Position numbers and translations under genes: made by a program. Below, piece by piece: positions 6,972 to 58,022 of a stretch of DNA of 64,000 nucleotides. The first letter of the stretch is position 1, and each line of letters opens with the position of its first letter. The notes beneath the pieces are model-generated. The model worked only from the letters and a program-made list of their open reading frames with translations. It was not told the DNA's origin and did not search any database. Source of the stretch: a virus; IMG/VR virus record IMGVR_UViG_3300025718_000001, positions 1 to 64,000 of that record, one strand, 5' to 3'.

Positions 6972-7169
6972 CTAATCGAAGAAGTTTTTAGGTTCCTCCT
7001 GCTTTTCTTTTTTATTAGATAAGGAATCAACGATATTGCTTATGATCGGCATACTAACAGGAGGGCTGCCTTTCTTCGACATCCACCCGAAGTAAAAACC
7101 CGTCCATGTACACGATAAAAAAAATAAGCCTTGAATAATTATCAGTGCTAGGACTTGCCAAAATGTCAT
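6972..7169 (-). CDS. small membrane protein (65 aa)
   Basis: Hydrophobic N-terminal half (WQVLALIIIQGLFFLSCTWTGFYFGW). Lies between terL and portal. Confidence 0.5.
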   Translation of the reverse strand: MTFWQVLALIIIQGLFFLSCTWTGFYFGWMSKKGSPPVSMPIISNIVDSLSNKKEKQEEPKNFFD

Positions 7170-23241: not shown

Positions 23242-23478
23242 CTAATCCATAATCATTAATGCTGTTCCGAATTTTCTCGCTATTATGCAATCTACTATGT
23301 CTGCATCTTGTAAATTTTCCATTGTTATGATTGACAAAAGGTCCAATGCGATACTTCCTGCGGTCATACTTTCTGTTATGGCTTCCAGTACCGCGAATTC
23401 TCTATCGCTTATTAACCCAGCTAAATTCATCTCAAATGCCGTTGTTTGAAATTGCATAACTAGCTCAGATATTTGCAA
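23242..23478 (-). CDS. hypothetical protein (78 aa)
   Basis: ORF overlaps the dnaB stop. Confidence 0.55.
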   Translation of the reverse strand: MQISELVMQFQTTAFEMNLAGLISDREFAVLEAITESMTAGSIALDLLSIITMENLQDADIVDCIIARKFGTALMIMD

Positions 23479-24763
23479 CGTCGATTACCTGCATCTTCGC
23501 TTTATCGAATTTAACCGGGATACTAATTTCTCCCTGTCCATCCCTGTTTTTATCCAAGAATACGAAGTAATCTGGCTTAACTCTAAATCCCTGGGATAGC
23601 GATTCTATTTTTTCGTCTTCCGTCATGGGTAAGAGCTTGATTAATATATCTGCTTCGTTCCGCATTCTCTTGGCGGCCTGTAGCGCTCCCTCTTCCGTGA
23701 GCTGGGCTAAGACAATAACCGCTATTTCTAATTCCTGTGCTATTGTTTTCAGCGCCTTGCAAATACTACTTAATGCTTCCCACTCTTTTTGGTCCTTTGC
23801 CGTGTCCATCCGTCCGATATAATCAAGAACAACTAACTTAATGCCTTTTTGCACTTTCAATTTACGAATCATGCTCACCAATTTATTGATATTCAGACTT
23901 GGACATGGGTAATGGTAAAATGGTGCTTTGTCGATGATCTCCATGTTTCCGAATATACCTTGTTTCTCTTCTTCGGTTATCTCTCCGTACTTGATACGGT
24001 CAGCATCTACCCCTGATACCATCGAAGCAAATCTCATAATTACTTGTTTCTTACTCATCTCGCTGTTAGCGTAAAGCGTCCCAACTTCGTGCATAAAGCA
24101 CCCTGCTGCTATGAAATTTTGCGCAAATGCTGTTTTTCCCTTTCCACTCTCTGCTGTAAGTAAGATAAGGTCCCCAGGTTTCCAGCCATTCGTTAGCCTG
24201 TTTAATTTACGGATTCCTGTACTTATACCTTGAAGCTCTCCCTTGTGTGCCATACGGTCTTCTATGACTTCTCTGCCTATCCTCGCAAGGTCTGCGCCTG
24301 TGTCTATTTGCTCTGTCGTTGTGGTTATTAACCCCGCAAGGTTTCTACTTGCGTTATTAATAAGCTCGTCCACATCAATAGCCGGACTTTTTAATTCTTC
24401 GGACAGGTTCATTAACACAGAACGCAAGGCTCGTAGTCTGCTTTTATCCTTGACATTTTTAAACCAATAAGGAAGGGAAACGGTACTAACATGGAACCCA
24501 ATGGTCTGTTTAGCGTATTCCCTGTCCTCAATGCTTGCCATCGTCCCCAGCTTAACTCCCTCTTTTAGCATTTCTAAGAAGGTTGGCTTTATGGCTTTTA
24601 CATACAATCCACTTAGTATGTCAAACATAGCCTTATGCTTTGGTTCGTAATAATCATCAGTCTGCATCGTTGCACAAGCTTGAATCATGCTTTCTTCACT
24701 TGCTAACATAGCCGCGATGATGCAGCGCTCACTCTCTATGTCGTAGTATTGATTTATCTCCAT
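23465..24763 (-). CDS. dnaB: replicative DNA helicase (DnaB family)
   Basis: 432 aa with Walker A ESGKGKTAF, Walker B LVVLDYIG and a DnaB-type N-terminal domain. Confidence 0.9.
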   Translation of the reverse strand: MEINQYYDIESERCIIAAMLASEESMIQACATMQTDDYYEPKHKAMFDILSGLYVKAIKPTFLEMLKEGVKLGTMASIEDREYAKQTIGFHVSTVSLPYWFKNVKDKSRLRALRSVLMNLSEELKSPAIDVDELINNASRNLAGLITTTTEQIDTGADLARIGREVIEDRMAHKGELQGISTGIRKLNRLTNGWKPGDLILLTAESGKGKTAFAQNFIAAGCFMHEVGTLYANSEMSKKQVIMRFASMVSGVDADRIKYGEITEEEKQGIFGNMEIIDKAPFYHYPCPSLNINKLVSMIRKLKVQKGIKLVVLDYIGRMDTAKDQKEWEALSSICKALKTIAQELEIAVIVLAQLTEEGALQAAKRMRNEADILIKLLPMTEDEKIESLSQGFRVKPDYFVFLDKNRDGQGEISIPVKFDKAKMQVIDVANI

Positions 24764-25512
24764 TGAATTTCTCCCTCCCTCTTAGGGGATTCGTTAATCT
24801 TGTCCTCCACCTGATTAAGATAGTTTTCAAAATTAGTAGGGCTAAATAATGTATTTGGCCTAAGAAAGTTTGATAAAGGCTTACCCTCCTTATCTTTTTT
24901 GCCAATCCACTCTTTGCATTTAATATCAATAACTTTCTTGAAATCATCTAGTGTTCTGCCCTCGCCCCATCTACCGTTTATAAATTTAATAGTAGCTTCC
25001 GTTTTTGGAGAAAAATTCTTCCCTGTTCTAAGGTTTAAGTAAGTAATAATTTCGAAATACGGTATCACTTCTTTAATTTCATTTGGTGTAGTTTCGTTTG
25101 GTTTAATAGTTGAACTATCGTCCAACTCCTGTTGAACGTCCGTTGAACGTCCGTTTGCCCTTCTCCATGCTTGAGCTGATGCCTTTCCGGCCTTTGATGC
25201 CTGTAATCTTTTCCCATCCAAATGCTCCATTCTCTTAAGAAGGGAAAGGCTAAAAAAGTCATGTTCATCAACCTCAAATAATCCATAGTTATTAATGACT
25301 GTTTTCATTTTTTCAAAGGTTGTGTTGTACCTTCGAGAGATAGCGGGTATAAGGGTTAGCGGATACCTATACCCCGGCTGATCCCTAAGCATTTCTACCA
25401 AAACCCAGTAGATGCCATACCCTTCAAGCCCCAACTGTTCAATAAGTAAAACGCACTTCGGATCATCCTTCGCATTAGAATCATGAGAAAAGTAATACGC
25501 ATCGATTGCCAT
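24754..25512 (-). CDS. phage replisome organiser (DUF4373 N-domain plus DnaD-like conserved phage C-terminus)
   Basis: YYFSHDSNAKDDPK...GYGIYWVLVEML at the N-terminus. IITYLNLRTGKNF...FLRPNTLFSPTNFENYLNQ at the C-terminus. Confidence 0.8.
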   Translation of the reverse strand: MAIDAYYFSHDSNAKDDPKCVLLIEQLGLEGYGIYWVLVEMLRDQPGYRYPLTLIPAISRRYNTTFEKMKTVINNYGLFEVDEHDFFSLSLLKRMEHLDGKRLQASKAGKASAQAWRRANGRSTDVQQELDDSSTIKPNETTPNEIKEVIPYFEIITYLNLRTGKNFSPKTEATIKFINGRWGEGRTLDDFKKVIDIKCKEWIGKKDKEGKPLSNFLRPNTLFSPTNFENYLNQVEDKINESPKREGEIQWR

Positions 25513-25524
25513 ATTTTATCCTTC

Positions 25525-25764
25525 CTACGCCAAAATCTTAGCAGCACAATCCTTACAAACCCTAGTCCCCCCAAATTCAACAAGCTCGTCCATTCCTTTG
25601 CAAAAAGTACAACCAACCTCATACCTCCGCATGTAAATTCCCTTGTCATCTGCCAGCATTTCTATTGCTGTTCCCTCAGACATATTGAGCGCCTTTCTTA
25701 CCTCTTTTGGAATAACAATTCTCCCAAGATTATCCACGTTACGAGTGATTCCCAGTGCTTTCAT
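25525..25764 (-). CDS. AbrB/SpoVT-family DNA-binding protein with a C-terminal zinc ribbon
   Basis: ITRNVDNLGRIVIPKEVRKAL swapped-hairpin motif, then CTFC...CKDC. Confidence 0.75.
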   Translation of the reverse strand: MKALGITRNVDNLGRIVIPKEVRKALNMSEGTAIEMLADDKGIYMRRYEVGCTFCKGMDELVEFGGTRVCKDCAAKILA

Positions 25765-27678: not shown

Positions 27679-28584
27679 CTAGAATCCAGGTCCCTTCTCA
27701 GCGTTCACCTTTTCCTCGTTCTTTCGATCCATCTCCACAATCTCAGCATCGGTAATCCCTTCTTCAACTTCTCCCTCAATCTGGATATCGATCAATTCAC
27801 CGTTGGAATTCCCTTCAATCTCTTCCTTAACCCTCGCTTCGATAGCTTCATCGTCAGTCTCCTTAGCGAACTTGCTGACAATGCTCTTATCATTCGAGGT
27901 ATTAATAATCATCTTGCAAGCTTTATTGATTACTGTCTTAACGCACATATCAGCTGTGAATTTTCCATGGACGCTGCTAGGCTTGATTTCGCCATTTTCA
28001 TTTACAGGATTCATTTTGCTTTGCTTCCAGGCTTGCTTAATTTGATCAATTGTCAAGATAGTAGATTCCTCTTTGCCCGAAAAATACAAAACTGTGGCAT
28101 AGGCGGCAATGATTTTACTTTTGTTCACATTCTCAATCTTTTGATTGTGCTTGGTTATGACATCTCTCCCGCGAACTTTTGAGTATTCAAATTCGTCACC
28201 CTCATAAACTGGTTCACCAAAGATAGTTTCAATGTTCGGGTCAACCATCTTAGCAACCGCTACACTCCCAAAATAACTCCTCTGTAGCGTGAGTTTTGTG
28301 CCGTAAGCGATAAAGTAACATTGCTTTTTGTCTGGGTTTAATCCTTGTACAACCATGCCTAAGAGGGCATTAGCAATGCTTTCCTTTGTGCAAAAATCAA
28401 GGACATATTTATGGTCCATGTTCTGCGTTTCCTGCAAGATGAGCCACGCAGCCTTCAATGCGTTCTGTGGAATGTAATTAGCAGGGAAGGTTAATTCACC
28501 ATTGTTTTCAAATTCCCTGACCCGCGTTGCTACAAAATCCACTGTTTCCTTTTTTACTACTAGGGCGTTGTTTACGTTTACCAT
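27679..28584 (-). CDS. recT: RecT-family single-strand annealing recombinase
   Basis: 301 aa, typical size with an acidic tail. Sits in the usual ATPase/RecT/nuclease context. Confidence 0.7.
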   Translation of the reverse strand: MVNVNNALVVKKETVDFVATRVREFENNGELTFPANYIPQNALKAAWLILQETQNMDHKYVLDFCTKESIANALLGMVVQGLNPDKKQCYFIAYGTKLTLQRSYFGSVAVAKMVDPNIETIFGEPVYEGDEFEYSKVRGRDVITKHNQKIENVNKSKIIAAYATVLYFSGKEESTILTIDQIKQAWKQSKMNPVNENGEIKPSSVHGKFTADMCVKTVINKACKMIINTSNDKSIVSKFAKETDDEAIEARVKEEIEGNSNGELIDIQIEGEVEEGITDAEIVEMDRKNEEKVNAEKGPGF

Positions 28585-30590
28585 TATGCCTGTACCTCCA
28601 CTCTCAAAATAGGATCTTCCACACTTGCGATAAGCCTAATTAACTGTGATTTAACCTCAATAGGACTCGTTACGGCCTCTGAATTGTCCACAAAGATGAC
28701 TGCACTCACTCCGTAAAACTCTGACAACATTTCAATAATTGAAAGCCCAGCAATAATTCTTCCGCCTGTATTTGCACCATCCCATTCAACCCAAACGCCA
28801 TTCGTATTAACTAACGTCCGACAAACTTCTTTCTCGCTACCATCATTCAAGGTATCGAACAACTTAAACTTCACAGTCTCAAACCTGTTATTAATAGCGT
28901 CTTCTAGCATCTTCACCTTTGTACTGGTGAACTTTTTAATCAGATAATCGTGCCGTTCGTACTCGCTTAATTCGCCAGCTAATTTGCGCTCTTCTGCTTT
29001 TAGTTCGTTGATACGGATATGCGCCTTTTCGACTACTTCTTTTTGGTTGAGTGTTTTGTTTAGGGATTCGATTGTGTCTGTAATTTCTTGCTTTCTGGCT
29101 AGGATTTCGGTTGTTGTGTCGATGATTGGCTTTTCTAGCTCAGCGTTTATCCTGTCAAGAGTTGCCTTCAACACGGAATAGGTATCATCTGCGTCATAAT
29201 TTACGGTTGCCGGTTGTTGTTGTGCTGTGATTTCGGTTTCGAGTTCGGAAAGGCGGGTATTAATCCTTTGGAGGGATTCTTCCAGTGTGGCAAGACTCGA
29301 AACATCCATTTCCCTTTCTTTATTAAGCGCCTCGGCCCTATCTGCCTTATCCTTGCCTTTTTCACGAATAGATGCTAATAATTGAGCTTTATTCTTATTA
29401 AAGTTTTCCTTCAACTTGTCAATCTTCTCTTGCGTCTTACCTTCTGGTAATGGTTGTTCGCAAGTCGGGCAATTAATTCCACTAGGTGCTACGAATTGTT
29501 TTGCATTTTCCTCACTCCATGTTGCGCGTAGCTCGATGATTCCTTTAGTTATAGAATCCAGCTCTATGGTTCTCAGGAGAGAGTTGGAACCCAATCTTGC
29601 AACTTCCTTGGAAAAACTGTACTCTTCATCTTTGAGCCTCGCCTTTTCATCAACCAACTTCTTGACATCTGCACCAGCAGCTACTTCAAGCTCCAACTTC
29701 CGTCCATTAACTTGATTCTGCAAACCATACGCCTGTTGCTGTTTCTGGCGGTATAAACTAGCACCTTGTGCATTTGTAGCAAGTTCTAATTCAATTGCCC
29801 GTAATGTGGCTTTATGGGCTTGTATGACTGTTTCTATTGCTGCGTAGTCAATCGCATCTTCGCTGGTATTCCGTTGCTGTTCGCTAATCCGTGCAGGAAT
29901 CCCATCAAGATCCTTTTTAGTGTTTTTGATCTTTTCGGCAATGACTAGTTTGTGATTGCCGATTGTCCTGCCCGAGTTGATGATTGTTAAGAGGTCGAGC
30001 ATACTTTTGTCGCCCACAGTGACTAGAGAATCAATCACATCTGTATCCGACACATCACCCGAAATCTCAAAGAGAATCTTTCGCCGTTCTTTCCAATCCC
30101 ATCCCTTCTCATTTGTATTGAAGAATAAGGGATTCGTGAGCAGTTTAAATACGTTTTCCTTGATGATTGAACCAATTTCGATAGCGTAGTCTTTCGCTTT
30201 TGTCGGGACATCGTTGACCCAATAGGAAGTAACATTGCCTGTAAAATCTACGTTCTTTGTCGTTTGATTTTTTGTCCATTTTTCTGAAAGTTGACGTTTT
30301 AGTTTTAGTTGCTTGCCGTTGATTGTGAGTATTCCCTCTACAATTGATTCGAGATGGTGGAGTTCATTGCCGTCCTCATCCTGCGGTTTTACCTGATAAT
30401 CAGATCGATTGGCCGAATCTTTGCCGAATAGCAACCATAAAAAGCTATCGTATAAGGTAGATTTTCCAGTTGCGTTTTTTCCATAAATGTCAGCATTTTT
30501 ACCGTCAAGAGTTAACGTAAATCCTTCACCCTCTACCCCTTTGAAGTTTTTCAACATTAGTGACTGTAGGCGAATGTCAGTTTTTGTCAT
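28584..30590 (-). CDS. SMC/Rad50/SbcC-like AAA ATPase
   Basis: Walker A GKNATGKST, a long central coiled coil with CPTC, and C-terminal AGLSII...VIFVDNSE. Confidence 0.7.
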   Translation of the reverse strand: MTKTDIRLQSLMLKNFKGVEGEGFTLTLDGKNADIYGKNATGKSTLYDSFLWLLFGKDSANRSDYQVKPQDEDGNELHHLESIVEGILTINGKQLKLKRQLSEKWTKNQTTKNVDFTGNVTSYWVNDVPTKAKDYAIEIGSIIKENVFKLLTNPLFFNTNEKGWDWKERRKILFEISGDVSDTDVIDSLVTVGDKSMLDLLTIINSGRTIGNHKLVIAEKIKNTKKDLDGIPARISEQQRNTSEDAIDYAAIETVIQAHKATLRAIELELATNAQGASLYRQKQQQAYGLQNQVNGRKLELEVAAGADVKKLVDEKARLKDEEYSFSKEVARLGSNSLLRTIELDSITKGIIELRATWSEENAKQFVAPSGINCPTCEQPLPEGKTQEKIDKLKENFNKNKAQLLASIREKGKDKADRAEALNKEREMDVSSLATLEESLQRINTRLSELETEITAQQQPATVNYDADDTYSVLKATLDRINAELEKPIIDTTTEILARKQEITDTIESLNKTLNQKEVVEKAHIRINELKAEERKLAGELSEYERHDYLIKKFTSTKVKMLEDAINNRFETVKFKLFDTLNDGSEKEVCRTLVNTNGVWVEWDGANTGGRIIAGLSIIEMLSEFYGVSAVIFVDNSEAVTSPIEVKSQLIRLIASVEDPILRVEVQA

Positions 30591-31092: not shown

Positions 31093-31414
31093 GCCCCCGC
31101 CTCGCCATCAACTCAATAACCTTCACTATAAGCGCAGTATCAGAACTCATTTCCACAATAGCCCCCTTCTCAGGATCAAACCAAATATCCAGCTCGCCAA
31201 TCTCATACTTGCACCGCATTTCGGTCTGCCATTCTTCCTTGATCGTTTCAGCCTCCGCAACAAGCCTTTTTGCTAATGCGTCTGCATCATCAAGGACTTT
31301 GAGTGCTTCGTCTAGCTTTGCCATTCCCCTTTTGAATCGTTCTGCCTCATCATCTGTGACAAGTGCCAATACTTTTTGTTCAGACATTGGGATCATCTTT
31401 TCTTTATCCGTCAT
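31085..31414 (-). CDS. hypothetical coiled-coil protein (109 aa)
   Basis: ORF in an operon. Confidence 0.55.
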   Translation of the reverse strand: MTDKEKMIPMSEQKVLALVTDDEAERFKRGMAKLDEALKVLDDADALAKRLVAEAETIKEEWQTEMRCKYEIGELDIWFDPEKGAIVEMSSDTALIVKVIELMARRGRG

Positions 31415-32222
31415 AACATCCGCATGCTTGGTCTACTACATCAATAAACATCGAAGGTTGATATTTACCATCCCCTAAAGCAACTTCTCCAGGCAAAGCC
31501 TTCGATTGTTCAATCTCCCTGCATCTCGTGTACCTAACAAACTTCATCCAAGAGAAACTTCTCCCAAGTCCCGAAATTGTTGTAAGATGAGCATGTATTT
31601 CCATCTTTAATGCCCTTTTTAACAAGTCGGGATGGTTTGCTCTTAATTCTAAAATCTCTGCCTTTTTCATGCTTGGGCAAAAGAAGCAGGATGATTTACC
31701 TGGTTGAGGAAGGTTTTCATTGGCAATTATTTGCTCACATTCATTCCTTCCAATATCCCATTCAATTAACGGATACCAGTATTCATATTTTTTGTCGTCG
31801 TATGCTTTAGCTCTCCTTTCTTCGTTTGCATCGTATCCAATAGCTTTAGTTACTTTTTCGCCCTTTTTCCATGTTTCTAAGGCTAATGGGAAATGGTTGC
31901 AATATTTATCCTGTGGCGCAGCCTTGAATTTTTGGGAACAAGTTTTAAATCCATAAGCTAGTGATGGTAACATTCTTTTTTCGAGACAATTTCTTTCAAG
32001 CGTCATTGTTTCCCCATTTAAATCAACCTTACTTACGGTAGTTATTGGAGGCATGCCATGAGAAACTAGCCAAAGGGAAAACATAATGATGTACCAATAT
32101 GTCTCAGGTCGTTCCCCCCCCGTATCAGCAAACAGGATGAGGTCGGGAATAATCCTGCGTTTCCACATTTCAATAAGCATTGCTGTCGAGTTTGTTCCTG
32201 CTCCATATGCAACGACTAGCAT
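31404..32222 (-). CDS. PAPS-reductase/PP-loop (adenine nucleotide alpha-hydrolase) family protein
   Basis: N-terminus VVAYGAGTNSTAMLIEMWKRRIIPDLILFADTGGERPETY resembles a PP-loop plus PAPS-reductase core. Confidence 0.5.
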   Translation of the reverse strand: MLVVAYGAGTNSTAMLIEMWKRRIIPDLILFADTGGERPETYWYIIMFSLWLVSHGMPPITTVSKVDLNGETMTLERNCLEKRMLPSLAYGFKTCSQKFKAAPQDKYCNHFPLALETWKKGEKVTKAIGYDANEERRAKAYDDKKYEYWYPLIEWDIGRNECEQIIANENLPQPGKSSCFFCPSMKKAEILELRANHPDLLKRALKMEIHAHLTTISGLGRSFSWMKFVRYTRCREIEQSKALPGEVALGDGKYQPSMFIDVVDQACGCYDG

Positions 32223-32560
32223 TCTTCACTCGCCAACTTAAGCTTTATAACTTCATTAACCGTTGCGATAAACTCCGAATTCGAGAATGGTCTTGCCCTA
32301 CCCATAATTCTCAGCCATGTTTCGTCATCTACTCTGCTTGCCCTAATCGCAGTACGAATCCCTCTCTCGACGCTGGGACCCATGCAATCTTTGTGCATTT
32401 TCGCTACTCCGGGGTATAATTCTTTCATCATTGCGTGGATTGATTCGGGATTTGTTTGCAAGAATAAAAGTGCGCTTTTTAAAAACTCATAACCTTTGAT
32501 ATGGGCAGGGATTTGGAGTTCGCGTAAGATGTTGTAGGTTTCAATTTTGAATTTGTTCAT
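32216..32560 (-). CDS. Spo0A C-terminal (effector/DNA-binding) domain protein without a receiver domain
   Basis: LQIPAHIKGYEFLKSAL, LYPGVAKM, SVERGIRTAIR and PFSNSEFIATVNEVIKLKL parallel Spo0A VPAHIKGYLYLREAI...SRVERAIRHAIE...PTNSEFIAMVADKLRL. Confidence 0.8.
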   Translation of the reverse strand: MNKFKIETYNILRELQIPAHIKGYEFLKSALLFLQTNPESIHAMMKELYPGVAKMHKDCMGPSVERGIRTAIRASRVDDETWLRIMGRARPFSNSEFIATVNEVIKLKLASEEC

Positions 32561-32577
32561 TCGTGTTCTCCTTTCTA

Positions 32578-33207
32578 TTATTGATTGGCTTTGAAGAAGG
32601 CGTTTGCGAATCCCGCTGGCGTAATACTGCGCCTGACTTGACGCTTATCTAATCCACAGGCAGGGTTATAAACGAAACCATCCGGTAATTCAGGCAAGTC
32701 TTCAAGTAAACGAGCATCAAATTTGATCGGGTCGTAGGATACTTGGTTCATTGCCGGCGTTTGGAAGTTGCCCCAAATATGAGTTATCTTTTTATATGGA
32801 TCACCAAACTGATGCGGGCTAAATTCCAACGGAGGTTTTCCGAGGAAGTATTTCAGAAATCCCCGGGGATTCTCTAGCGCCCAAAACTTCAAGGTTGTGA
32901 CTTTTGAGTTTGGACTGATTAGTGCATATTGTTGTTGCCAAATTATCCCTAAGCATCTCTTGACCAGCTTCATAGACCCCTCTAAATCTCTTGGATTCCT
33001 TGCGTTTGTACGAGCGAGACTAAAATGTGTGCAGGTTGGTGCTGCGAGAATGCCATATACCCCCCCTGGAGGCTCGTAGGTGAATAGATCGTGTTCTGGC
33101 AAGGTGACAAGTCTAACGTCATATCCTGCGTCCTTATATGGCTTGGACCAGGACCCTGTCCCACCGCATAAATCCAAGATGATCTTGTCGGAATTGTCCA
33201 TTACCAT
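32578..33207 (-). CDS. short C5-cytosine-methyltransferase-like protein with no obvious target-recognition domain
   Basis: Motif I ILDLCGGTGSWS, motif IV AAPTCTHFS, motif VI ALENPRG, and QFGDPYKK. Only 209 aa. Confidence 0.55.
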   Translation of the reverse strand: MVMDNSDKIILDLCGGTGSWSKPYKDAGYDVRLVTLPEHDLFTYEPPGGVYGILAAPTCTHFSLARTNARNPRDLEGSMKLVKRCLGIIWQQQYALISPNSKVTTLKFWALENPRGFLKYFLGKPPLEFSPHQFGDPYKKITHIWGNFQTPAMNQVSYDPIKFDARLLEDLPELPDGFVYNPACGLDKRQVRRSITPAGFANAFFKANQ

Positions 33208-33606
33208 CTACCCTTCATTTCTCATGATATCTTCCAAACTCCACACGCTTGTGCTAGACTGATCTTGTGATATTTCCTCTAGGTCCCTCTGCAAAGGGGC
33301 CTTTTTCATAACTAACTTTATGAGCGTTTCTTCCTCATAATTGATATAAAACAGCTCACATTCCACCCCATCCATAGGGTCTGTGTAGTTTAGCGACTTG
33401 CCAGCGTGTTCGAGATTCGGGAATAATTCGTCAAGCTCATCGCTGATCGCTTGTTCGACTCTATTCCAATCAACATCAGGCATGGAATGTATTACGATTG
33501 CCGAGGTTGAGTCGTTCAGGAGTTCGATGGTCACTCTTTGGATTATGCTTGGGTATTTAGCGAGTTCTTTGATGGCTTGGAATTGGTCTGACGTTATTTC
33601 TTTCAT
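33208..33606 (-). CDS. hypothetical protein (132 aa)
   Basis: ATG at 33606 overlaps the upstream TGA (ATGA). Confidence 0.55.
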   Translation of the reverse strand: MKEITSDQFQAIKELAKYPSIIQRVTIELLNDSTSAIVIHSMPDVDWNRVEQAISDELDELFPNLEHAGKSLNYTDPMDGVECELFYINYEEETLIKLVMKKAPLQRDLEEISQDQSSTSVWSLEDIMRNEG

Positions 33607-33836
33607 TCTCCTACTCCCCAATTACAGCAATCGAATCTATCAAACCCACTCGGCTTCTCCGTCTCCGCATCCCTCACGGCTTGTCCCTTCATTATCAATT
33701 GCCAATCATGCCGATACTGCTCCTCACGCTGATCCTCATGCTCTTTCCTCCACGCCTCAACTTCTCTGCGGAACCAATTGACTTTGAGTAGTTGCTTGCC
33801 AATTGCCTTTGCCCACTTTTTCATAAGGTTTTTCAT
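33603..33836 (-). CDS. hypothetical protein (77 aa)
   Basis: ORF in an operon. Confidence 0.55.
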   Translation of the reverse strand: MKNLMKKWAKAIGKQLLKVNWFRREVEAWRKEHEDQREEQYRHDWQLIMKGQAVRDAETEKPSGFDRFDCCNWGVGE

Positions 33837-33840
33837 CGTT

Positions 33841-34725
33841 TTAACCCTTCCTCCTTCGGTATTCTGGCCACGGTGTTGTTTTGAATGTGGCTTTATGGAT
33901 TACCCATCTCGCAAAGTCAGCCTGATATGGATCTGTTTTATCAAAAGGCATTACGAACGGGTCTACACCCAAACTCTTTAGCATTTCGACCCTGTATAAA
34001 TCCTCATCCTCAGTTGTGTCGTATCCGATCAGAACGTAGAACATCAATTTGTAAGGCAACATATACTTTGTTAGAATTCGTATACCATCCAATACAACTT
34101 GCTCTAGATCCATTGAATCCCAAGCGAATCTTAACTTTCCGCTTTTCCATAACCTAACCTTAGAGAGACGCTTCGCCTTATCGTCATCTATCAAGCGAAT
34201 ATCTAATCCTTGATTAAAATCTGTCTTAATCTTATGTTTGATAACTTGATTGACAATCAGATTAAAATGTTCCGTATCTCCCGTTAAATTGTTATCCATC
34301 AGAGTTATATGCTCTTGGCCTTGCCAAAATTGGTGTATGTCTGCTACAGGGTGCAAACGGCCCTCCTTAATGGGCACGATACAGAAAGAGCAAGAACGGT
34401 TGCATCCTCGTGTACAAAACCCTCTCGACACCTGAGAGTTGTATAAAGAGTAGTCGGGATACATTGTTTCCACTTCGTCAGGTAACTTGATCGTTAGGTC
34501 GAATCCACTTCCACCTTGAATTATTTCGCAATCTGGAAAGTATCCGTAGTTATCAGAAGCTTTAAATATTTTAGATGAGTAGATACGGTCTGGTTTGTTC
34601 TCCTTAATATCAAACATGGGGTCAAATATCTTGACAGAATCCCCAAGCCCTTTGTGGTAAGCCGACAGCTTCATAAGTACTAAGTTCGGTATCTTGGAAT
34701 CAACATCGACCAAACCTACCTTCAT
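33841..34725 (-). CDS. radical SAM enzyme
   Basis: CNRSCSFC (CX3CX2C) follows a Rossmann-like N-terminus (MKVGLVDVDSKIPNLVLMKLSAYHK). Confidence 0.6.
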   Translation of the reverse strand: MKVGLVDVDSKIPNLVLMKLSAYHKGLGDSVKIFDPMFDIKENKPDRIYSSKIFKASDNYGYFPDCEIIQGGSGFDLTIKLPDEVETMYPDYSLYNSQVSRGFCTRGCNRSCSFCIVPIKEGRLHPVADIHQFWQGQEHITLMDNNLTGDTEHFNLIVNQVIKHKIKTDFNQGLDIRLIDDDKAKRLSKVRLWKSGKLRFAWDSMDLEQVVLDGIRILTKYMLPYKLMFYVLIGYDTTEDEDLYRVEMLKSLGVDPFVMPFDKTDPYQADFARWVIHKATFKTTPWPEYRRRKG

Positions 34726-37503: not shown

Positions 37504-37701
37504 CTAATCTTCTTTGAATAAATCGGCCATAGTGCATCCGAGAACCTTCGCGATCTTCTCAAGAATCCTAACAGTGGGCATTTTCTTAGCTCCTAGAATT
37601 TCCGATATGGTAGCCGAGGAAACCCCAGCTAACTTAGCTAACTCGAATTGCTTAAGCCCCCTTTGATCCATGTACTTCTTGACGTTCTTTGCGACAATCA
37701 A
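37504..37701 (-). CDS. Cro-like XRE-family HTH regulator
   Basis: LKQFELAKLAGVSSATISEI. TTG at 37701 follows AAGGAGGTG plus 6 nt (the track ORF extends to 37746). Confidence 0.75.
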   Translation of the reverse strand: MIVAKNVKKYMDQRGLKQFELAKLAGVSSATISEILGAKKMPTVRILEKIAKVLGCTMADLFKED

Positions 37702-37809: not shown

Positions 37810-37838
37810 ATTATATTAGCCACGTGCTAAGAAGTCAA
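37810..37838 (-). promoter_or_regulatory. leftward early promoter
   Basis: Minus strand TTGACT, 17-nt spacer, TATAAT. Followed by the inverted repeat GCAAACAT/ATGTTTGC. Confidence 0.65.
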
Positions 37839-37953: not shown

Positions 37954-38334
37954 TTGATTTTTGGGGAGAAAGTCAAGTATGTCCGGGAATTACGAAATCT
38001 AACACAGGCCGACCTTTCTGCTAAGTGTTCCCTAAGTATTCCTTTTATATCAGAAATTGAAACAGGGAAAAAGAGGCCCTCCACTAGGGCACTAGAGAGG
38101 ATAGCGAAGGCGTTAAATACTAATACTTGGTTCTTCCAAGATGATGCCGCTATTACCTTTAAGGAGATAAATAAACTATCCGATTATGAACCACCGGAAG
38201 GTATAGTTGAATTCTTTTCCCAAAAGGAAAGTTTGCCTTACGCAATATTAGCCAGAGAGTTAAGCGATGAAGGAATAGACCCCGAATTCCTTCGCGATCT
38301 ACTTGACTCAATCAGAAAAATGAAAGCAAAGTAA
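37954..38334 (+). CDS. CI-like XRE-family repressor
   Basis: LTQADLSAKCSLSIPFISEIETGKKRPS plus a C-terminal domain. TTG start follows AAGGGGGTG. Divergent from cro. Confidence 0.75.
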   Translation: MIFGEKVKYVRELRNLTQADLSAKCSLSIPFISEIETGKKRPSTRALERIAKALNTNTWFFQDDAAITFKEINKLSDYEPPEGIVEFFSQKESLPYAILARELSDEGIDPEFLRDLLDSIRKMKAK

Positions 38335-38793: not shown

Positions 38794-38998
38794 TAATTAA
38801 AAAGGAAAATACAATAACCCTGTCGAATTAAACTAAAAAAGGATATGGAAAAACCTCTTAGAATTCCCACCGGCAAGTGATATCCTAAGAGGTTCCAATA
38901 AGACAGGAAACATTCCTGTGTTTTATGCTGTTGATTAACATTATAAAGCACATTAGAACTTCTGTCCATTCCTTAATAGAATTGACGGGGGTTTTATT

Positions 38999-39388
38999 TT
39001 GTTCAGATTACCACGCCCACAGAAAAACTATACAGAAGTTCCTAACATTGTTTTTGATGAGCTAATACCCAACATATCCAATATGGCTGCGCTCAAATGT
39101 TACCTAATCTTAATTCGTAAGACATGGGGATGGGAAAAGATAGGTGACTATTTAGCTATGCCCCAATTAACCAAGCTCACGAAACTTTCAAGGCCCAGCG
39201 TAACAGCCGGGATGCGCTGGCTAGATAGCAGGGGTTATATTTGGATTGCAAAGGCAGGTGAACCTGGTCAAGAGAAGATTATGTATTTCCTTTGCACCGA
39301 GGAAACTGAACACCTTGAACGGTCCGTAAAAGAAGGGCTATTGAGTGCGGATACCCTCTATAAAATGATGATGAAAGAGCGAGAATAG
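38999..39388 (+). CDS. lambda-O-like replication initiator, N-terminal wHTH domain
   Basis: YTEVPNIVFDELI...LKCYLILIRKTWGWEKIGDYLAMPQLTKLTKLSRPSVTAGMRWLDSRGYI fits the Phage_rep_O pattern. Iterons follow. Confidence 0.7.
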   Translation: MFRLPRPQKNYTEVPNIVFDELIPNISNMAALKCYLILIRKTWGWEKIGDYLAMPQLTKLTKLSRPSVTAGMRWLDSRGYIWIAKAGEPGQEKIMYFLCTEETEHLERSVKEGLLSADTLYKMMMKERE

Positions 39389-40169: not shown

Positions 40170-40480
40170 TGCCTAATTTTGGCAGGAATAATAGACGAAC
40201 GGTACGCCATACCTTTCAGTATCACCTAAACGTTGAATGAAACGGTCAACGGCTATCAATCTACACTAGGAGGTGAAAGCTTGTAACTAATCGGTAGTGA
40301 AAACGCTTTTGATGGCTCCTACCTTTTATCGCTAATAACTAGCGTATTGTTACATCAAGAGGGTGGTTGACATCACCCTGTTCTTCCCAGGATCATGCCT
40401 GAGAAGAAACGGCATGACGGTACTCTATTCCCATCTGCCTTAGATTCATAGCTCCAATTCTATCGTCATTTGATTGATAG
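40170..40480 (-). ncRNA. candidate TnpB omega RNA (reRNA); boundaries approximate
   Basis: Hairpins downstream of the tnpB stop: GGGTG..CACCC, CGCTA..TAGCG, CGTTGA..TCAACG and GGTA..TACC. Confidence 0.4.
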
Positions 40481-41514
40481 CCACATGATTTACAAGTGAA
40501 GCTATGTTTTTTCTTGTTGCGATTAGATCGCTCAGTATGACCGCACTTTGGGCATTTCTGACTTGTATATCTTGGATCAACTGCAATTGTCTGATTTCCT
40601 GCCAACATTGATTTATATTCAATCTTGCTTCTCATGTCAAGAAACGCCCAAGAAACGGAATAGTATCTGTCCTGACGTTTAACGCGTTCAGTAGCAGAAC
40701 GAATTCCTTTTAGATCCTCTAAGACTATAAGACTATTAGATCCCGCAAATTCAACGAGTGCCTTAGCAGTTTGATGATTAACATCTTGTTGCCAACGGTT
40801 TTCTCTATTACCAATCTTTCTTAATCGCCTGCGAGAGGATGGAGTTTTCTTTTGTTGTAGAGACTTCCTTATTCTCTTAAACTGAGCTTTTTTGTTCTTG
40901 ATATATCTACCACCAACGAAGAGGGTCTTGTTATTACTGTCAATGGCTGTGACAAGATAATTCATTCCAACATCAACACCTACAACATTTATGATGTCAT
41001 TATTGGGGCAGATTGCGAATTCCTTTTTAACAGATATATGGAGATAATATTTATCCTTCTTCTTAACTAGAGTACTTGCCCCATACTCCCAAGTTCCATC
41101 AAAATAGTCTTCCAATCCTTTGGCGACGTATGACATCTTAATTCTAGTGCCTATTGTCCCGATACTCAATGTACCGTCTTTGAGAAACGAATAGTCTCGA
41201 TTATAAGAATATTGGAGTTTTGGTTGTTTATAAACAGCCAAGGTGTTCTCTCCGTTCGATTTCATTGACGCATATGTCCCTGCTACCACTGAGCAGACGT
41301 TACAGGCCATCTGGGACTTCAATTGAAACTGTTCCCTAAGATCATAGTAGACTAACCCCTGCAACTTCTTAAATGCTGACAGTTGATTATTCTTAAATGC
41401 AATTTCACTAGCGAAATTCAAACCAGCTTTAACCTGTATTAATGTTTTATCTAACTGTCTTTTCTGCTCTTCATTTGGTAAAAGCTTAACCTTTGCAGTA
41501 ATAATAGCTTCCAT
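40393..41514 (-). CDS. tnpB: TnpB RNA-guided endonuclease (OrfB)
   Basis: RuvC-I VGVDVGMNY, RuvC-II VLEDLKG, zinc ribbon CPKCGH...CKSCGY and RuvC-III NDDRIGAMN. Confidence 0.9.
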   Translation of the reverse strand: MEAIITAKVKLLPNEEQKRQLDKTLIQVKAGLNFASEIAFKNNQLSAFKKLQGLVYYDLREQFQLKSQMACNVCSVVAGTYASMKSNGENTLAVYKQPKLQYSYNRDYSFLKDGTLSIGTIGTRIKMSYVAKGLEDYFDGTWEYGASTLVKKKDKYYLHISVKKEFAICPNNDIINVVGVDVGMNYLVTAIDSNNKTLFVGGRYIKNKKAQFKRIRKSLQQKKTPSSRRRLRKIGNRENRWQQDVNHQTAKALVEFAGSNSLIVLEDLKGIRSATERVKRQDRYYSVSWAFLDMRSKIEYKSMLAGNQTIAVDPRYTSQKCPKCGHTERSNRNKKKHSFTCKSCGYQSNDDRIGAMNLRQMGIEYRHAVSSQA

Positions 41515-41565: not shown

Positions 41566-41603
41566 CGAATAGAAGTCCTAACGTTGAGTTGAAAGGAGAA
41601 AGA

Positions 41604-42959
41604 ATGAAAAAGCACAGCGACTTCTCTTCTGAAATTAAAGAGCAAATTATGAGAGCTATATACCGTGGACCAGATAACGAAATACCCTCTGCCATCTATG
41701 ATGCAATTTCTATCCTGTATGCTAGTTGCCCCCTTAAGCCATTCATTTTCAAGAAAACTCTTCTCTCCCCCAAGGAAAAACTAAAGCCTCAGCTACCCGA
41801 AAACCTCAATCCGCAAGAAATCCTCCACTGGATAATGCACAGACCAAAACTAAAGCAGACATGGTGCTTAGTGATTCACCTGCCGCCTGGAATAGACTTC
41901 ACTGAGTTCAAAAGTAGAGAACCCTACTTCTCCACAGCGATTGGCAACGGTTCATGCGAAATAGAGCGCAATGGAAAAGTTGTATTAATGACCATATCTA
42001 ATATATTACTCAATAAGTCATATCCTTTTGAGTTCGACCCATACCCATATCTAAAGAAAATGAGCTTGCCTATCCTCCTTGGCTATAGTGCAAGTGGTCC
42101 TATTATTGTAGATATGGCAGAGCTAGTGACTATTTTAACAGGAGGACTCAGGGGATCGGGCAAGTCAGTTTTATTCCACGGAGCTATATATAGTCTCCTA
42201 AGGCTTAACACCGACCTACTCAATCCTAAAGTAATTGTCTGTATCATCGACCCAAAGATTAAGGAATTCAAATACTTTGAGGAATATGGCGCAATATGGG
42301 TTCATGACATGGATGAAATACGGCAACTACTCGAAATGTTAGATGAAGAGAACGAACGCAGACAGGACTTAATCGGTGGCAAGGCTAACAACATCATTGA
42401 ATATCATGCGCTTGGAAAGAAGTTGCCTTTTGTTGTTGTGGTAGCAGATGAAGTAACTGACTTAGGCGAAGATAAGAATTGCAGGAAGTTAATGATTAAG
42501 GCAGTGCGCAAGTATCGTAGTCAAGGAATTTATGTATGGGCAGCTACGCAAAGGCCTTCCGCAAAAGCATGGGGAAGTTCAAACGAATTCAGCGAATTCA
42601 AGAGCCAGTTTGAATCAAGGGTATGCTTCAGGACCGCCGACCCTATTAACAGTCAAATGATATTGGATTCCAACCGTGCTAGTTCCCTTCCGAAGATCCC
42701 CGGTCGAGCCATCTATAAATTCAGCGAAGAGACTGAAATACAAGTTCCTTATTTTCCATCTAAGGCAAAGCATCCTAAACTATTTCACGAACTTATGGAC
42801 CAATTACCCAAAGTTGCACTTCCCTATCACAACATCGAAGGTGAGGTATATGATTATGAACCCAATTACCCACTCCAAAGGACGCAAAAGAGATCAGCAG
42901 GTCCTAGCGCATCTCGAAGCTTGCGGGGTCTTATCTCAGGAGCAAATACATTTGCTTGA
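41604..42959 (+). CDS. FtsK/SpoIIIE-family DNA translocase ATPase
   Basis: Walker A GGLRGSGKS, Walker B FVVVVADEV, and ATQRPS. ATG at 41604 follows AAAGGAGAA. Confidence 0.8.
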   Translation: MKKHSDFSSEIKEQIMRAIYRGPDNEIPSAIYDAISILYASCPLKPFIFKKTLLSPKEKLKPQLPENLNPQEILHWIMHRPKLKQTWCLVIHLPPGIDFTEFKSREPYFSTAIGNGSCEIERNGKVVLMTISNILLNKSYPFEFDPYPYLKKMSLPILLGYSASGPIIVDMAELVTILTGGLRGSGKSVLFHGAIYSLLRLNTDLLNPKVIVCIIDPKIKEFKYFEEYGAIWVHDMDEIRQLLEMLDEENERRQDLIGGKANNIIEYHALGKKLPFVVVVADEVTDLGEDKNCRKLMIKAVRKYRSQGIYVWAATQRPSAKAWGSSNEFSEFKSQFESRVCFRTADPINSQMILDSNRASSLPKIPGRAIYKFSEETEIQVPYFPSKAKHPKLFHELMDQLPKVALPYHNIEGEVYDYEPNYPLQRTQKRSAGPSASRSLRGLISGANTFA

Positions 42960-50243: not shown

Positions 50244-50912
50244 TTATTTTTGTTGCAATAATGCAAGTGTTAATTTTTTGCAAGCAAAGCCATCCGCGAA
50301 AGTTTTAGCCATGAACGCTGTTGATAAGCTTTCTTGAATACATACGACTACGTAGCAATCGGGATCGGGGTCTACTGTTTTTACGTCTGGCATTTTAGGC
50401 ACCTCCTGAATTACTGATTTATTACCTAATACCGCTTTCTCAAACTCATCGTAGGACCACATACCCCTTAGTGTGGGAACCTTAGAATAAGTGCACCCTG
50501 GGCAGTCTGTATACGTCACCTGACCGTGTGGATATACATTGTCTAGGGTTAACCCATACTGAGCCATTAGACGCTTTACAAGGGCAACTAGAGCGTTAAA
50601 TTGAGCTTGTGGCATGGGATACTTTGTGAAGTCCCCAGCTACACCAATTCCGATGGAGTTTTGATTCCACCATTGATCCCCCTTTTGAGAATAAGGTTTT
50701 TTATCAGAAAGTGTATGCGCTCCCTGGTAATTAAGTGGTCTACCGTCTCTGATTGTTCCGTCTGCTTCTACCCCAAAATCATATTCAGGGTAATCATAGT
50801 TGGCAGGATTCCAACGTTTGAGAATGGATACTTCAGGAGGTTTACCGTCCCCCATGTGGTGAATGACTATATCTTGGATTGATCTGTTAAATGGAGTTGA
50901 CATATTTTTCAC
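50244..50912 (-). CDS. N-acetylmuramoyl-L-alanine amidase endolysin (Amidase_2/PGRP type)
   Basis: IVIHHMGDG, NSIGIGVAGDF and YPHGQVTYTDCPG. Confidence 0.8.
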   Translation of the reverse strand: MKNMSTPFNRSIQDIVIHHMGDGKPPEVSILKRWNPANYDYPEYDFGVEADGTIRDGRPLNYQGAHTLSDKKPYSQKGDQWWNQNSIGIGVAGDFTKYPMPQAQFNALVALVKRLMAQYGLTLDNVYPHGQVTYTDCPGCTYSKVPTLRGMWSYDEFEKAVLGNKSVIQEVPKMPDVKTVDPDPDCYVVVCIQESLSTAFMAKTFADGFACKKLTLALLQQK

Positions 50913-58008: not shown

Positions 58009-58022
58009 AACCTCCCTCCTTT

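What the first reader, a model, noticed from the sequence alone, without database searches (positions are those of the whole stretch)
32216..32560. Phage-encoded Spo0A effector domain lacking the phospho-receiver
The 114-aa product aligns by eye along its whole length with the Spo0A C-terminal DNA-binding domain. The matching segments are IPAHIKGYEFLKSAL, LYPGVAKM, SVERGIRTAIR and NSEFIATVNEVIKLKL. It has no receiver domain. In established Spo0A biology, removing the receiver gives a phosphorylation-independent, constitutively DNA-binding form. A phage copy could switch on or block 0A-box promoters and steer host sporulation, biofilm formation or the phage's own lysis-lysogeny decision.
Basis: partly seen in the sequence, partly recalled or inferred. 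Interest (0 to 1): 0.7.

Follow-up and report, generated by a model that had tools for sequence, protein, structure and literature searches.

The report
Phage stand-alone Spo0A DNA-binding domain
A roughly 67 kb phage of an unidentified Bacillota host carries, in its early operon, a 114-residue copy of only the DNA-binding half of the sporulation master regulator Spo0A; this kind of gene has already been reported in gut phages, but nobody has yet tested what it does.

Summary
Window 32216-32560 (minus strand) encodes a 114-aa protein that is a full-length Spo0A_C domain. Pfam PF08769 scores 64.7 bits against a cutoff of 25. The AlphaFold model (pLDDT 95) superposes only on Spo0A-C structures 1FC3 and 1LQ1 (best chains TM about 0.8, rmsd about 2 A). 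No receiver domain exists anywhere in the window.

The window is a phage. The gene lies about 5 kb downstream of a cI/Cro-type switch, in the early replication and recombination operon.

The kind is not new. Schwartz et al. 2023 (mBio) described truncated, effector-only spo0A homologs in gut phages, and databases already carry the name.

What I add:
- The protein belongs to a distinct stand-alone phage/prophage clade, only 35-42% identical to bacterial Spo0A.
- The clade keeps the recognition-helix residues E213, R214 and R217 (B. subtilis numbering).
- It has diverged in, and shortened after, helix E, which in B. subtilis is the sigma-A-activating region.
- 0A boxes are not enriched in the phage genome.

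Best reading: a phosphorylation-independent 0A-box binder, made early in the lytic cycle, that acts on the host Spo0A regulon. It more likely blocks or represses than activates. This is inferred, not shown. It is a new member of a known kind, of moderate interest.

The parts
32216..32560 (-). Stand-alone Spo0A_C gene (114 aa)
   Evidence: ORF; Pfam PF08769 at 64.7 bits; AF2 model pLDDT 95; Foldseek matches to 1fc3 and 1lq1 with TM about 0.8.
32568..32575 (-). Ribosome-binding site GAAAGGAG, 7 nt before the ATG
   Evidence: Read directly from the sequence.
32396..32431 (-). First helix of the helix-turn-helix (residues 44-55, MKELYPGVAKMH; Spo0A helix C)
   Evidence: DSSP helix 44-55 in the model. 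Aligns to B. subtilis 193-205. T194, K195, L197, Y198, P199 and A202 are conserved in the clade; in this protein T194 is replaced by M45.
32342..32380 (-). Recognition helix (residues 61-73, GPSVERGIRTAIR; Spo0A helix D) with E65, R66 and R69 equivalent to B. subtilis E213, R214 and R217
   Evidence: DSSP helix 61-73. Column conservation in the stand-alone clade is 96%, 92% and 97%.
32282..32332 (-). Diverged helix E and shortened E-F loop (residues 77-93, VDDETWLRIMGRARPFS), equivalent to B. subtilis 227-248 with 241-245 missing
   Evidence: Alignment to the 1lq1 sequence and column statistics; DSSP helix 79-86.
37810..37838 (-). Probable early promoter (TTGACT-17-TATAAT, 11 of 12) driving the minus-strand early operon that contains the gene
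   Evidence: Consensus scan. It lies in the cI/Cro intergenic region. This is a consensus match, not proof of function.
37504..37701 (-). Cro-like HTH gene (65 aa), first gene of the early operon
   Evidence: Called gene in L001/L002 mapped to the window; Pfam HTH_3 and HTH_26.
37954..38334 (+). cI-like repressor (126 aa), divergent from the early operon
   Evidence: PHROG transcriptional repressor families; Pfam HTH_3.
32578..33207 (-). Upstream neighbour: DNA-methyltransferase-like protein (209 aa)
   Evidence: phrog_757, E=5.5e-27. The relative L005 has a DNA_methylase gene in the same position.
31404..32222 (-). Downstream neighbour with overlapping start: PAPS-reductase-like protein (272 aa)
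   Evidence: phrog_424, E=3.2e-31. It has the same position in L005 and L009.

Best explanation
The gene encodes a free-standing Spo0A-type DNA-binding domain. It is transcribed with the phage's early replication and recombination genes, directly after infection or derepression of the cI/Cro-type switch. Because it has no receiver domain, it needs neither the host phosphorelay nor phosphorylation. Its helix-turn-helix keeps the residues that read the 0A box, so it most likely occupies 0A-box-like sites (TGTCGAA) on host DNA. The surface that bacterial Spo0A uses to activate sigma-A RNA polymerase (helix E and the E-F loop) is substituted and shortened. I therefore expect it to act mainly as a competitor or repressor at Spo0A-controlled promoters. 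That would uncouple the infected cell from its own sporulation decision and most probably hold it out of sporulation while the lytic cycle runs. Shown here: domain identity, fold, absence of a receiver, early-operon position, clade-wide conservation of the recognition helix, and divergence of helix E. Inferred: 0A-box binding, the host as target, and the direction of the effect.
For: Identity and fold. No receiver. Early operon: a strong promoter-like site at 37838-37810 in the cI/Cro intergenic region with no strong minus-strand terminator before the gene. The same placement, 3.5-5 kb after a cI/Cro-type switch, is seen in relatives L004, L005, L170, L171 and L172. Distinct, conserved clade: in an NJ tree of 313 domains the query sits in an 85-member clade of 80 stand-alone proteins, 5 with N-terminal extensions and none with a receiver. 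Recognition residues E213, R214 and R217 are kept in 96%, 92% and 97% of the clade, and the HIKGY, LYP and NSEF motifs are kept. Helix E region: G227V, S233L, F236M, V240R and A257N in this protein. About 84% of the clade lacks residues 223-224 and 241-245. K246-P247 (P in 98% of receiver-containing Spo0A) is replaced, and F236 (89%) is mostly L in the clade. Phage DNA is not the obvious target. TGTCGAA occurs 10 times against 7.0-7.5 expected. Boxes with at most one mismatch are no denser in regulatory intergenic regions (2.8 per kb) than overall (3.3 per kb). Literature: the isolated Spo0A DNA-binding domain binds legitimate targets without phosphorylation (PMC3485338), and Schwartz et al. 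propose host-signal-independent control of sporulation for truncated phage spo0A (PMC10294663). An AbrB-family regulator gene sits in the same early operon, which suggests a wider set of transition-state regulators.
Against: No binding or expression data exist. The host is unknown, so neither host 0A boxes nor the host's ability to sporulate could be checked. The roles assigned to E213, R214, R217 and to residues 227-240 and 257-260 come from B. subtilis work recalled from memory (Zhao 2002; Hatt & Youngman 1998; Buckner 1998; Kumar 2004); I could not re-read these papers here. Helix E might contact a divergent host sigma factor equally well. Natural Spo0A sites are degenerate, so lack of consensus enrichment does not exclude phage targets. 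In 13 relatives' 12-kb neighbourhoods TGTCGAA is mildly over-represented, 31 against 20.2, reached by 2 of 100 shuffles. An isolated domain lacks the receiver-mediated dimerisation that stabilises binding to paired boxes.
Confidence: 0.45

Rival explanations
1. Constitutive activator. The free effector domain behaves like receiver-deleted Spo0A (sad67-type) and switches on the Spo0A regulon, pushing the host towards sporulation, biofilm formation or a stationary-phase state. This might, for example, trap the phage genome in a spore.
For: Receiver removal frees the DNA-binding domain from inhibition (PMC3485338). The recognition helix is conserved. Phage genomes can exploit spores as vehicles, as phi29 does (PMC2731898).
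Against: Helix E and the E-F loop, needed for sigma-A-dependent activation in B. subtilis (own knowledge), are substituted and shortened in this protein and in about 84% of its clade, whereas receiver-containing Spo0A proteins conserve them. The gene is co-expressed with lytic replication genes, a phase in which sporulation would abort virion production.
Confidence: 0.15
2. Phage-internal regulator. The Spo0A_C fold is simply the DNA-binding module of a phage transcription or replication regulator that acts on phage DNA, such as middle or late promoters or the origin, with no connection to host sporulation.
For: The gene sits among replication, recombination and DNA-modification genes. One consensus box lies in the intergenic region upstream of the RepO-like gene (38821-38827) and one lies between terminase and portal (7075-7081). 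There is a mild excess of TGTCGAA in relatives' neighbourhoods. Host Spo0A regulates phi29 promoters and origins through 0A boxes, so phage DNA can be a Spo0A target.
Against: There is no significant enrichment or clustering of 0A boxes in the genome or in regulatory regions. The apparent TGNCGAA excess is matched by variants that are not 0A boxes. The gene occurs in mosaic, otherwise unrelated phage backgrounds, which fits a host-directed accessory gene better than a core regulator. Strict conservation of the host-type recognition residues over a clade with mean column identity of only 37% suggests a conserved target shared across hosts.
Confidence: 0.2
3. Host replication shut-off. The protein binds the 0A boxes that overlap DnaA boxes at the host origin and blocks initiation of chromosome replication, freeing resources for phage DNA synthesis.
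For: Spo0A binding prevents initiation of phi29 DNA replication (PMC2731898). Spo0A also inhibits oriC-dependent initiation in B. subtilis (own knowledge: Castilla-Llorente 2006). The gene is embedded in the phage replication and recombination module.
Against: This is purely positional reasoning. The host and its origin are unknown, and nothing distinguishes this from promoter-level interference.
Confidence: 0.1
4. Controller of the flanking DNA-modification genes (methyltransferase, PAPS-reductase-like, radical SAM), analogous to the C proteins of restriction-modification systems.
For: There is tight coupling to a methyltransferase-like gene upstream and an overlapping start with the PAPS-reductase-like gene. 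The same trio order is seen in L005, and a PAPS-reductase-like gene follows in L009.
Against: Most clade members lack these neighbours: L004, L170, L171 and L172. By tblastn only 1 of about 80 loci shares the PAPS-reductase gene and none shares the methyltransferase.
Confidence: 0.05

Closest known systems
Truncated, effector-only spo0A homologs of human-gut phages (Schwartz et al. 2023, mBio, PMC10294663)
   Same: A phage-carried Spo0A DNA-binding domain without a receiver, with the same proposed independence from host phosphorelay signals. The 13 GenBank phage records that match are all uncultured human-faecal 'Bacteriophage sp.' contigs. BFVD holds 7 phage proteins already named 'Spo0A C terminal'.
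   Different: This protein is only 28-42% identical to those GenBank records, and its genome has no megablast match. Analyses done here that are absent from the passages of that paper I read: clade separation from bacterial Spo0A, helix E divergence, constant early-operon placement, and a 0A-box census of the phage.
Spo0A C-terminal effector domain of Bacillus and Geobacillus (PDB 1LQ1, 1FC3)
   Same: The same six-helix fold (best chains TM about 0.8, rmsd about 2 A), the same helix-turn-helix, and recognition residues E213, R214 and R217 plus the HIKGY, LYP and NSEF motifs.
   Different: 32-37% identity and no receiver. Residues 223-224 (including W224) and 241-245 are missing. Helix E surface residues are replaced, several by basic ones. 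It fails the Spo0A equivalog model (64 bits against 200).
Receiver-deleted or isolated Spo0A DNA-binding domain used experimentally (Spo0A-DBD; sad67-type alleles)
   Same: The architecture is equivalent. The isolated domain binds legitimate targets without phosphorylation (PMC3485338).
   Different: Those constructs keep the native helix E and can activate. The phage clade has a remodelled helix E, so activation cannot be assumed.
Host Spo0A acting on phage phi29 and Nf through 0A boxes in the phage genome (PMC2731898)
   Same: It links Spo0A-type DNA binding to phage transcription and replication, and to the choice between lysis and entrapment in a spore.
   Different: There the regulator belongs to the host and the boxes are in the phage. 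Here the regulator belongs to the phage, and its genome shows no enrichment of boxes.
Other phage-borne copies of host developmental regulators (sporulation sigma factors sigF and sigG in Bacillus phages; CtrA in alphaproteobacterial phages, PMC9437464)
   Same: The phage carries a homolog of a host master regulator. For the sigma factors, ectopic expression reduced spore yield (cited in PMC10294663).
   Different: These are different protein families. The CtrA paper appeared only in a search listing and was not read.

Membership tests
Pfam Spo0A_C (PF08769) domain family | Profile match above the gathering threshold over most of the domain | tested here: met
   64.7 bits against 25, profile positions 3-102 of 104.
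Pfam Spo0A_C (PF08769) domain family | Six-helix Spo0A-C fold with an internal helix-turn-helix | tested here: met
   AF2 pLDDT 95. Foldseek finds only 1fc3 and 1lq1, TM 0.70-0.87, best chains rmsd about 2 A.
Pfam Spo0A_C (PF08769) domain family | Recognition-helix residues that read the 0A box (B. subtilis E213, R214, R217) | tested here: met
   E65, R66 and R69 are present; 92-97% conserved in the clade. The residue roles are from memory of Zhao et al. 2002.
Pfam Spo0A_C (PF08769) domain family | Actual binding to TGTCGAA boxes | not testable with these tools
   Needs EMSA, DAP-seq or ChIP.
Spo0A proper (orthologue of the sporulation master regulator; NCBIfam TIGR02875 equivalog) | Whole-protein score above the equivalog cutoff | tested here: not met
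   64.2 bits against a cutoff of 200. Only model positions 149-259 of 262 are matched.
Spo0A proper (orthologue of the sporulation master regulator; NCBIfam TIGR02875 equivalog) | N-terminal receiver domain with the phospho-accepting aspartate | tested here: not met
   The protein is 114 aa and starts at helix A. There is no receiver-like sequence in any frame of the window.
Spo0A proper (orthologue of the sporulation master regulator; NCBIfam TIGR02875 equivalog) | Conserved helix E and E-F loop (sigma-A-activating region: G227, F236, G237-Y238-T239, K246-P247) | tested here: not met
   V77, M86, R88, A89 and P91-F92 replace them, and residues 241-245 are absent. Receiver-containing Spo0A proteins conserve these positions at 64-98%.
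Phage truncated-spo0A group (Schwartz et al. 2023) | Effector domain only, encoded on a phage genome | tested here: met
   Of 86 Spo0A_C ORFs in the fetched loci, almost all from viral contigs, 61 are stand-alone proteins of at most 160 aa.
Phage truncated-spo0A group (Schwartz et al. 2023) | Host is an endospore-forming Bacillota | tested here: inconclusive
   Only a Bacillota affiliation could be inferred. TerL is about 50% identical to Faecalibacterium, Bacillus and Staphylococcus phages. TnpB is 72-73% identical to Vulcanibacillus and Pectinatus. No close prophage copy appeared in the capped genome scan.

The most novel reading that the evidence does not exclude
The stand-alone phage clade is a dedicated viral dominant-negative of the sporulation master regulator. 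It keeps Spo0A's DNA-reading head but has lost the activation surface. When made early in the lytic cycle it sits on host 0A boxes at promoters, and possibly at oriC, and locks the infected cell out of sporulation, its dormancy-based escape from infection. This would be an anti-dormancy counter-defence built from the host's own regulator. The tandem 2-5-domain cellular versions and the paired phage genes would then be related 'pre-dimerised' 0A-box binders.
Probability: 0.3. Interest if true: 0.6.

Novelty: new member of a known kind. Interest (0 to 1): 0.35.

Why it matters
Sporulation is both a survival programme and an effective refuge from phage. A phage protein that reads the same DNA boxes as Spo0A but ignores the host's phosphorelay would be a direct handle on that decision in gut and other anaerobic Firmicutes. 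The class is already published, so this locus is not a discovery in itself. Its value is as a well-defined test case: a complete ~67 kb genome and a high-confidence structure. It also offers a specific, falsifiable prediction, that the protein binds 0A boxes but does not activate, which separates 'phage promotes sporulation' from 'phage blocks sporulation'. No cultured phage among the 50,697 GenBank phage records of the INPHARED set carries a detectable relative, so synthetic expression is the practical route.

Tried and rejected
1. 0A boxes as phage targets. TGTCGAA is not enriched. The twofold excess of the relaxed TGNCGAA partly survived a codon-preserving shuffle, 58 against 38. However, 24 of the 33 same-strand hits are in a single reading frame (xxT-GNC-GAA), and variants that are not 0A boxes are as frequent (TANCGAA 55, TGNCGAT 52). 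I rejected it as a sequence-context effect.

2. A conserved TGTCGAA 50 nt upstream of the gene in L010 and L013 looked like autoregulation. It lies inside a conserved small DUF6906-like ORF and is best explained by coding.

3. Host identification.
- TnpB homologs gave no near-identical named genome.
- TerL and portal comparisons say only 'Bacillota phage'.

4. The single-protein scan of IMG/VR found nothing. The alignment-based scan was needed.

5. Literature for residue-level contacts. A search on Arg214, Glu213 and 1LQ1 was unproductive, and the J Bacteriol helix E paper is not held. Those residue roles therefore rest on my own knowledge.

6. Integrase search. None was found among the ORFs checked by Pfam or PHROGs (all but a few short or structural-module ORFs), nor in the ~3 kb of the circular contig outside the window. 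The 'lysis-lysogeny' angle therefore has no anchor in this phage.

7. dN/dS was not attempted, because the nearest homolog is 67% identical and synonymous sites would be saturated.
Full report
**1. Observation**

Window 32216-32560 holds, on the minus strand, an ATG-started ORF of 114 codons.
- It has a GAAAGGAG ribosome-binding site 7 nt upstream.
- Its stop codon overlaps the start of the next gene as ATGCTAG.

Against Pfam the protein matches Spo0A_C (PF08769) at E=8.7e-18. The score is 64.7 bits against a gathering threshold of 25, over profile positions 3-102 of 104. Against NCBIfam it matches only the C-terminal 149-259 of the 262-position Spo0A equivalog model, at 64 bits against a cutoff of 200. 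Against PDB sequences it matches only Spo0A-C of Geobacillus and Bacillus (1fc3, 1lq1; about E=6e-11).

An AlphaFold2 model was built on 63 stand-alone homologs. It has pLDDT 95.0 and pTM 0.87, and its helices correspond to Spo0A helices A-F. Foldseek against the PDB returns seven significant hits. All are chains of 1fc3 or 1lq1 (TM 0.70-0.87, rmsd 1.8-3.5 A), and the next hit has E=2.4.

A six-frame scan of the whole window finds no receiver-like sequence at E<=10 and exactly one Spo0A_C domain. That scan used an HMM made from the receiver domains of five Spo0A proteins.

**2. What the window is**

The window is a phage genome.
- Structural and lysis genes: large terminase 7182-8705, P22-type portal 4922-6958, a capsid protein, tail and lytic tail proteins 53233-59489, and an amidase 50244-50912.
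- Replication and recombination genes: DnaB-like helicase 23465-24763, replication initiator 24754-25512, RecT 27679-28584, and an SbcC-like ATPase 28584-30590.

The identical protein occurs on contigs of about 67 kb from two JGI metagenomes and on Logan contigs. The contigs have different start points and join the two ends of the window. The genome is therefore about 67 kb and circularly permuted or circular.

No record in the INPHARED phage set resembles the genome at the DNA level. No integrase or serine recombinase was found among the ORFs checked in the window, nor in the ~3 kb outside it.

The host is unknown. The terminase is about 50% identical to those of Faecalibacterium, Bacillus and Staphylococcus phages. 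An inserted TnpB is 72-73% identical to proteins of Vulcanibacillus and Pectinatus. This says Bacillota and no more.

**3. Genomic setting of the gene**

A cI-like repressor (37954-38334, +) and a Cro-like gene (37504-37701, -) are divergently arranged. Between them, an 11-of-12 sigma-A-type promoter match at 37838-37810 points into the minus-strand operon.

The Spo0A_C gene lies about 5 kb into that operon.
- Upstream are a radical-SAM protein and a methyltransferase-like protein.
- Downstream are a PAPS-reductase-like protein, then the SbcC-like ATPase, RecT, a metallo-beta-lactamase-fold protein, an AbrB-family regulator, the replication initiator and DnaB.

It is therefore an early lytic gene, not a gene expected to be expressed from the repressed prophage.

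The same placement, 3.5-5 kb downstream of a cI/Cro-type switch, is seen in five relatives examined with precomputed annotations (L004, L005, L170, L171, L172). Three of them carry an integrase or serine recombinase, and one (L170) is integrated in a 131-kb bacterial contig. Otherwise the surrounding genes are mosaic. By tblastn few of the ~80 fetched loci share any neighbour with this phage.

**4. The family**

An exhaustive HMMER search gives 2,615 representative clusters at E<=1e-3. A profile search gives more than 7,500 proteins at E<=1e-5.

Three architectures appear among the best hits:
- canonical receiver plus Spo0A_C, about 250-280 aa;
- stand-alone proteins of about 110-150 aa;
- proteins made of 2-5 tandem Spo0A_C domains, which I did not expect.

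In a neighbour-joining tree of 313 domain sequences the query falls in an 85-member clade. That clade contains 80 stand-alone proteins and 5 with N-terminal extensions, and none carries a receiver. The tree is crude and the sample is biased towards the query.

The nearest receiver-containing Spo0A proteins are only 38-39% identical.

IMG/VR holds 85 viral contigs with a relative. Of the 86 Spo0A_C ORFs in the fetched loci, 61 are stand-alone proteins of at most 160 aa, and 17 are full Spo0A, several of them at contig edges.

The phage gene is therefore not a recent fragment of a host spo0A. It belongs to an old, diversified, phage-borne lineage.

**5. Which parts of Spo0A are kept**

Numbering is by alignment to the B. 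subtilis 1LQ1 sequence.

Kept in the clade:
- HIKGY (169-173).
- The first HTH helix: T194, K195, L197, Y198, P199, A202.
- The recognition helix: V212, E213, R214, I216, R217 and A219, with E213, R214 and R217 at 96%, 92% and 97%.
- The NSEF cap of helix F.

From my own knowledge of the Spo0A-DNA complex (Zhao et al. 2002), E213, R214 and R217 make the base-specific contacts to the 0A box. Their retention over a clade with mean column identity of 37% argues for selection on the same or a very similar DNA target.

Diverged in the clade:
- The region that B. subtilis genetics identifies as needed for sigma-A-dependent activation: helix E, residues about 227-240, plus 257-260. This is my own knowledge (Hatt & Youngman 1998; Buckner et al. 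1998; Kumar et al. 2004).
- In this protein the changes are G227V, S233L, F236M, Y238R, V240R and A257N.
- A223-W224 and S241-A245 are absent here and in about 84% of the clade.
- K246-P247 is replaced, and several surface positions have become basic.

The receiver-containing sequences in the same alignment conserve G227 (82%), W224 (87%), F236 (89%), G237 (82%) and P247 (98%). The tandem-domain proteins are intermediate.

**6. Does it act on the phage?**

The consensus 0A box TGTCGAA occurs 10 times in 64 kb, against 7.0 expected from dinucleotide shuffles and 7.5 from synonymous-codon shuffles.

The relaxed TGNCGAA is twofold over dinucleotide expectation and 1.5-fold over the codon-shuffle expectation.
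- 24 of the 33 same-strand hits are in one reading frame.
- Only four hits are intergenic.
- Neighbouring variants that are not 0A boxes are as common.
I treat this excess as a composition effect.

Boxes with at most one mismatch are no denser in putative regulatory regions than elsewhere.

Two consensus boxes are intergenic, at 38821 upstream of a RepO-like gene and at 7075 between terminase and portal. Their number is what chance gives.

In 13 relatives' 12-kb neighbourhoods the count is 31 against 20.2, reached by 2 of 100 shuffles and including one duplicate locus. This is weak and unclustered. An apparently conserved box upstream of the gene in two relatives lies inside a conserved small ORF.

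The phage genome is thus not visibly equipped as a target, which leaves host DNA as the more likely one.

**7. Mechanism**

The best-supported reading has three parts.
- The protein is a phosphorylation-independent 0A-box-binding protein.
- It is produced at the onset of the lytic programme.
- It interferes with the host's Spo0A regulon.

The premise that an isolated Spo0A DNA-binding domain binds legitimate targets is established (PMC3485338). Because helix E is remodelled, I favour competition or repression over activation. The likely biological sense is keeping the infected cell out of sporulation until progeny are made. That would be consistent with published results for phage sigma-factor homologs, whose ectopic expression lowers spore yield (cited in PMC10294663).

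The steps from 'has the residues' to 'binds 0A boxes', 'acts on the host' and 'blocks' are all inference.

Rivals are a constitutive activator, a phage-internal regulator, an inhibitor of host origin firing, and a controller of the flanking DNA-modification genes. They are scored separately in this report.

**8. Novelty**

Schwartz et al. 2023 (mBio 14:e00182-23) reported that spo0A homologs in gut viromes (n=29) are truncated to the effector domain. They suggested that such homologs may not need host signals.

UniProt/BFVD and NCBI already name such proteins 'Spo0A C-terminal domain-containing'. I found no paper in the held library that tests one experimentally.

All 13 matching GenBank phage records are uncultured faecal contigs, so no cultured phage carries a detectable relative.

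This locus is therefore a new, fairly divergent member of a known kind. Its interest score assumed more novelty than there is, and the 'switch on' and 'lysis-lysogeny' options are the less supported ones.

Noticed in passing
Proteins P0008, P0010, P0012, P0013, P0016, P0017, P0034 and others (not in the window); L173: Among the best family hits are proteins built of 2-5 tandem Spo0A_C domains with no receiver (for example 439 aa with 4 domains and 849 aa with 5), confirmed with Pfam. The one context retrieved (P0008) is next to a glmS-like gene, so it is cellular rather than phage. I know of no description of this architecture. It would be a covalently 'pre-oligomerised' 0A-box binder.
   Followed up: partly
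L172 4610-5336 (ERZ27254732 k141_670604, 65 kb contig): A related phage carries two adjacent stand-alone Spo0A_C genes (132 aa and 111 aa) at the same early-operon position, followed by an SbcC-like gene, RecT and a beta-lactamase-fold gene.
   Followed up: no
window 25525-25764 (-): A 79-aa AbrB-family DNA-binding domain (TIGR01439, 43.6 bits against 28.3; it also aligns to the SpoVT N-terminus), with a C-terminal CxxC...CxxC motif, lies in the same early operon just upstream of the replication initiator. This is a second homolog of a transition-state or sporulation regulator fold in this phage. PF04014 genes also lie near the Spo0A_C gene in L004 and L172.
   Followed up: partly
window 40393-41514 (-) and 41589-42959 (+): A TnpB / IS605 OrfB RNA-guided-endonuclease gene (no TnpA seen) is inserted in the plus-strand block next to an FtsK/SpoIIIE-family ATPase and a short RepO-like protein (38999-39388). 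The closest named TnpB relatives are only 72-73% identical.
   Followed up: partly
whole window plus about 3 kb outside it (L167): The ~67 kb genome has a cI/Cro-type switch but no detectable integrase or recombinase, whereas relatives with the same switch and Spo0A_C gene do have one (L004, L170, L171). Together with the RepO-like and FtsK-like genes this raises the possibility of a non-integrating, plasmid-like or purely lytic lifestyle.
   Followed up: partly
window 31404-34725 (-): The Spo0A_C gene sits inside a run of putative DNA-modification genes: a radical-SAM protein (phrog_9298), a short methyltransferase-like protein (phrog_757) and a PAPS-reductase-like protein (phrog_424). None reaches a Pfam or NCBIfam threshold. 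The methylase, Spo0A_C, PAPS-reductase order recurs in L005, and a PAPS-reductase-like gene also follows the Spo0A_C gene in L009.
   Followed up: partly
window, genome-wide: Heptamers of the form TNNCGAA and TGNCGAW are all about 1.5-2 times commoner than shuffles predict, and are concentrated in one codon phase. This codon-context bias can masquerade as 0A-box enrichment when the relaxed TGNCGAA definition is used.
   Followed up: yes
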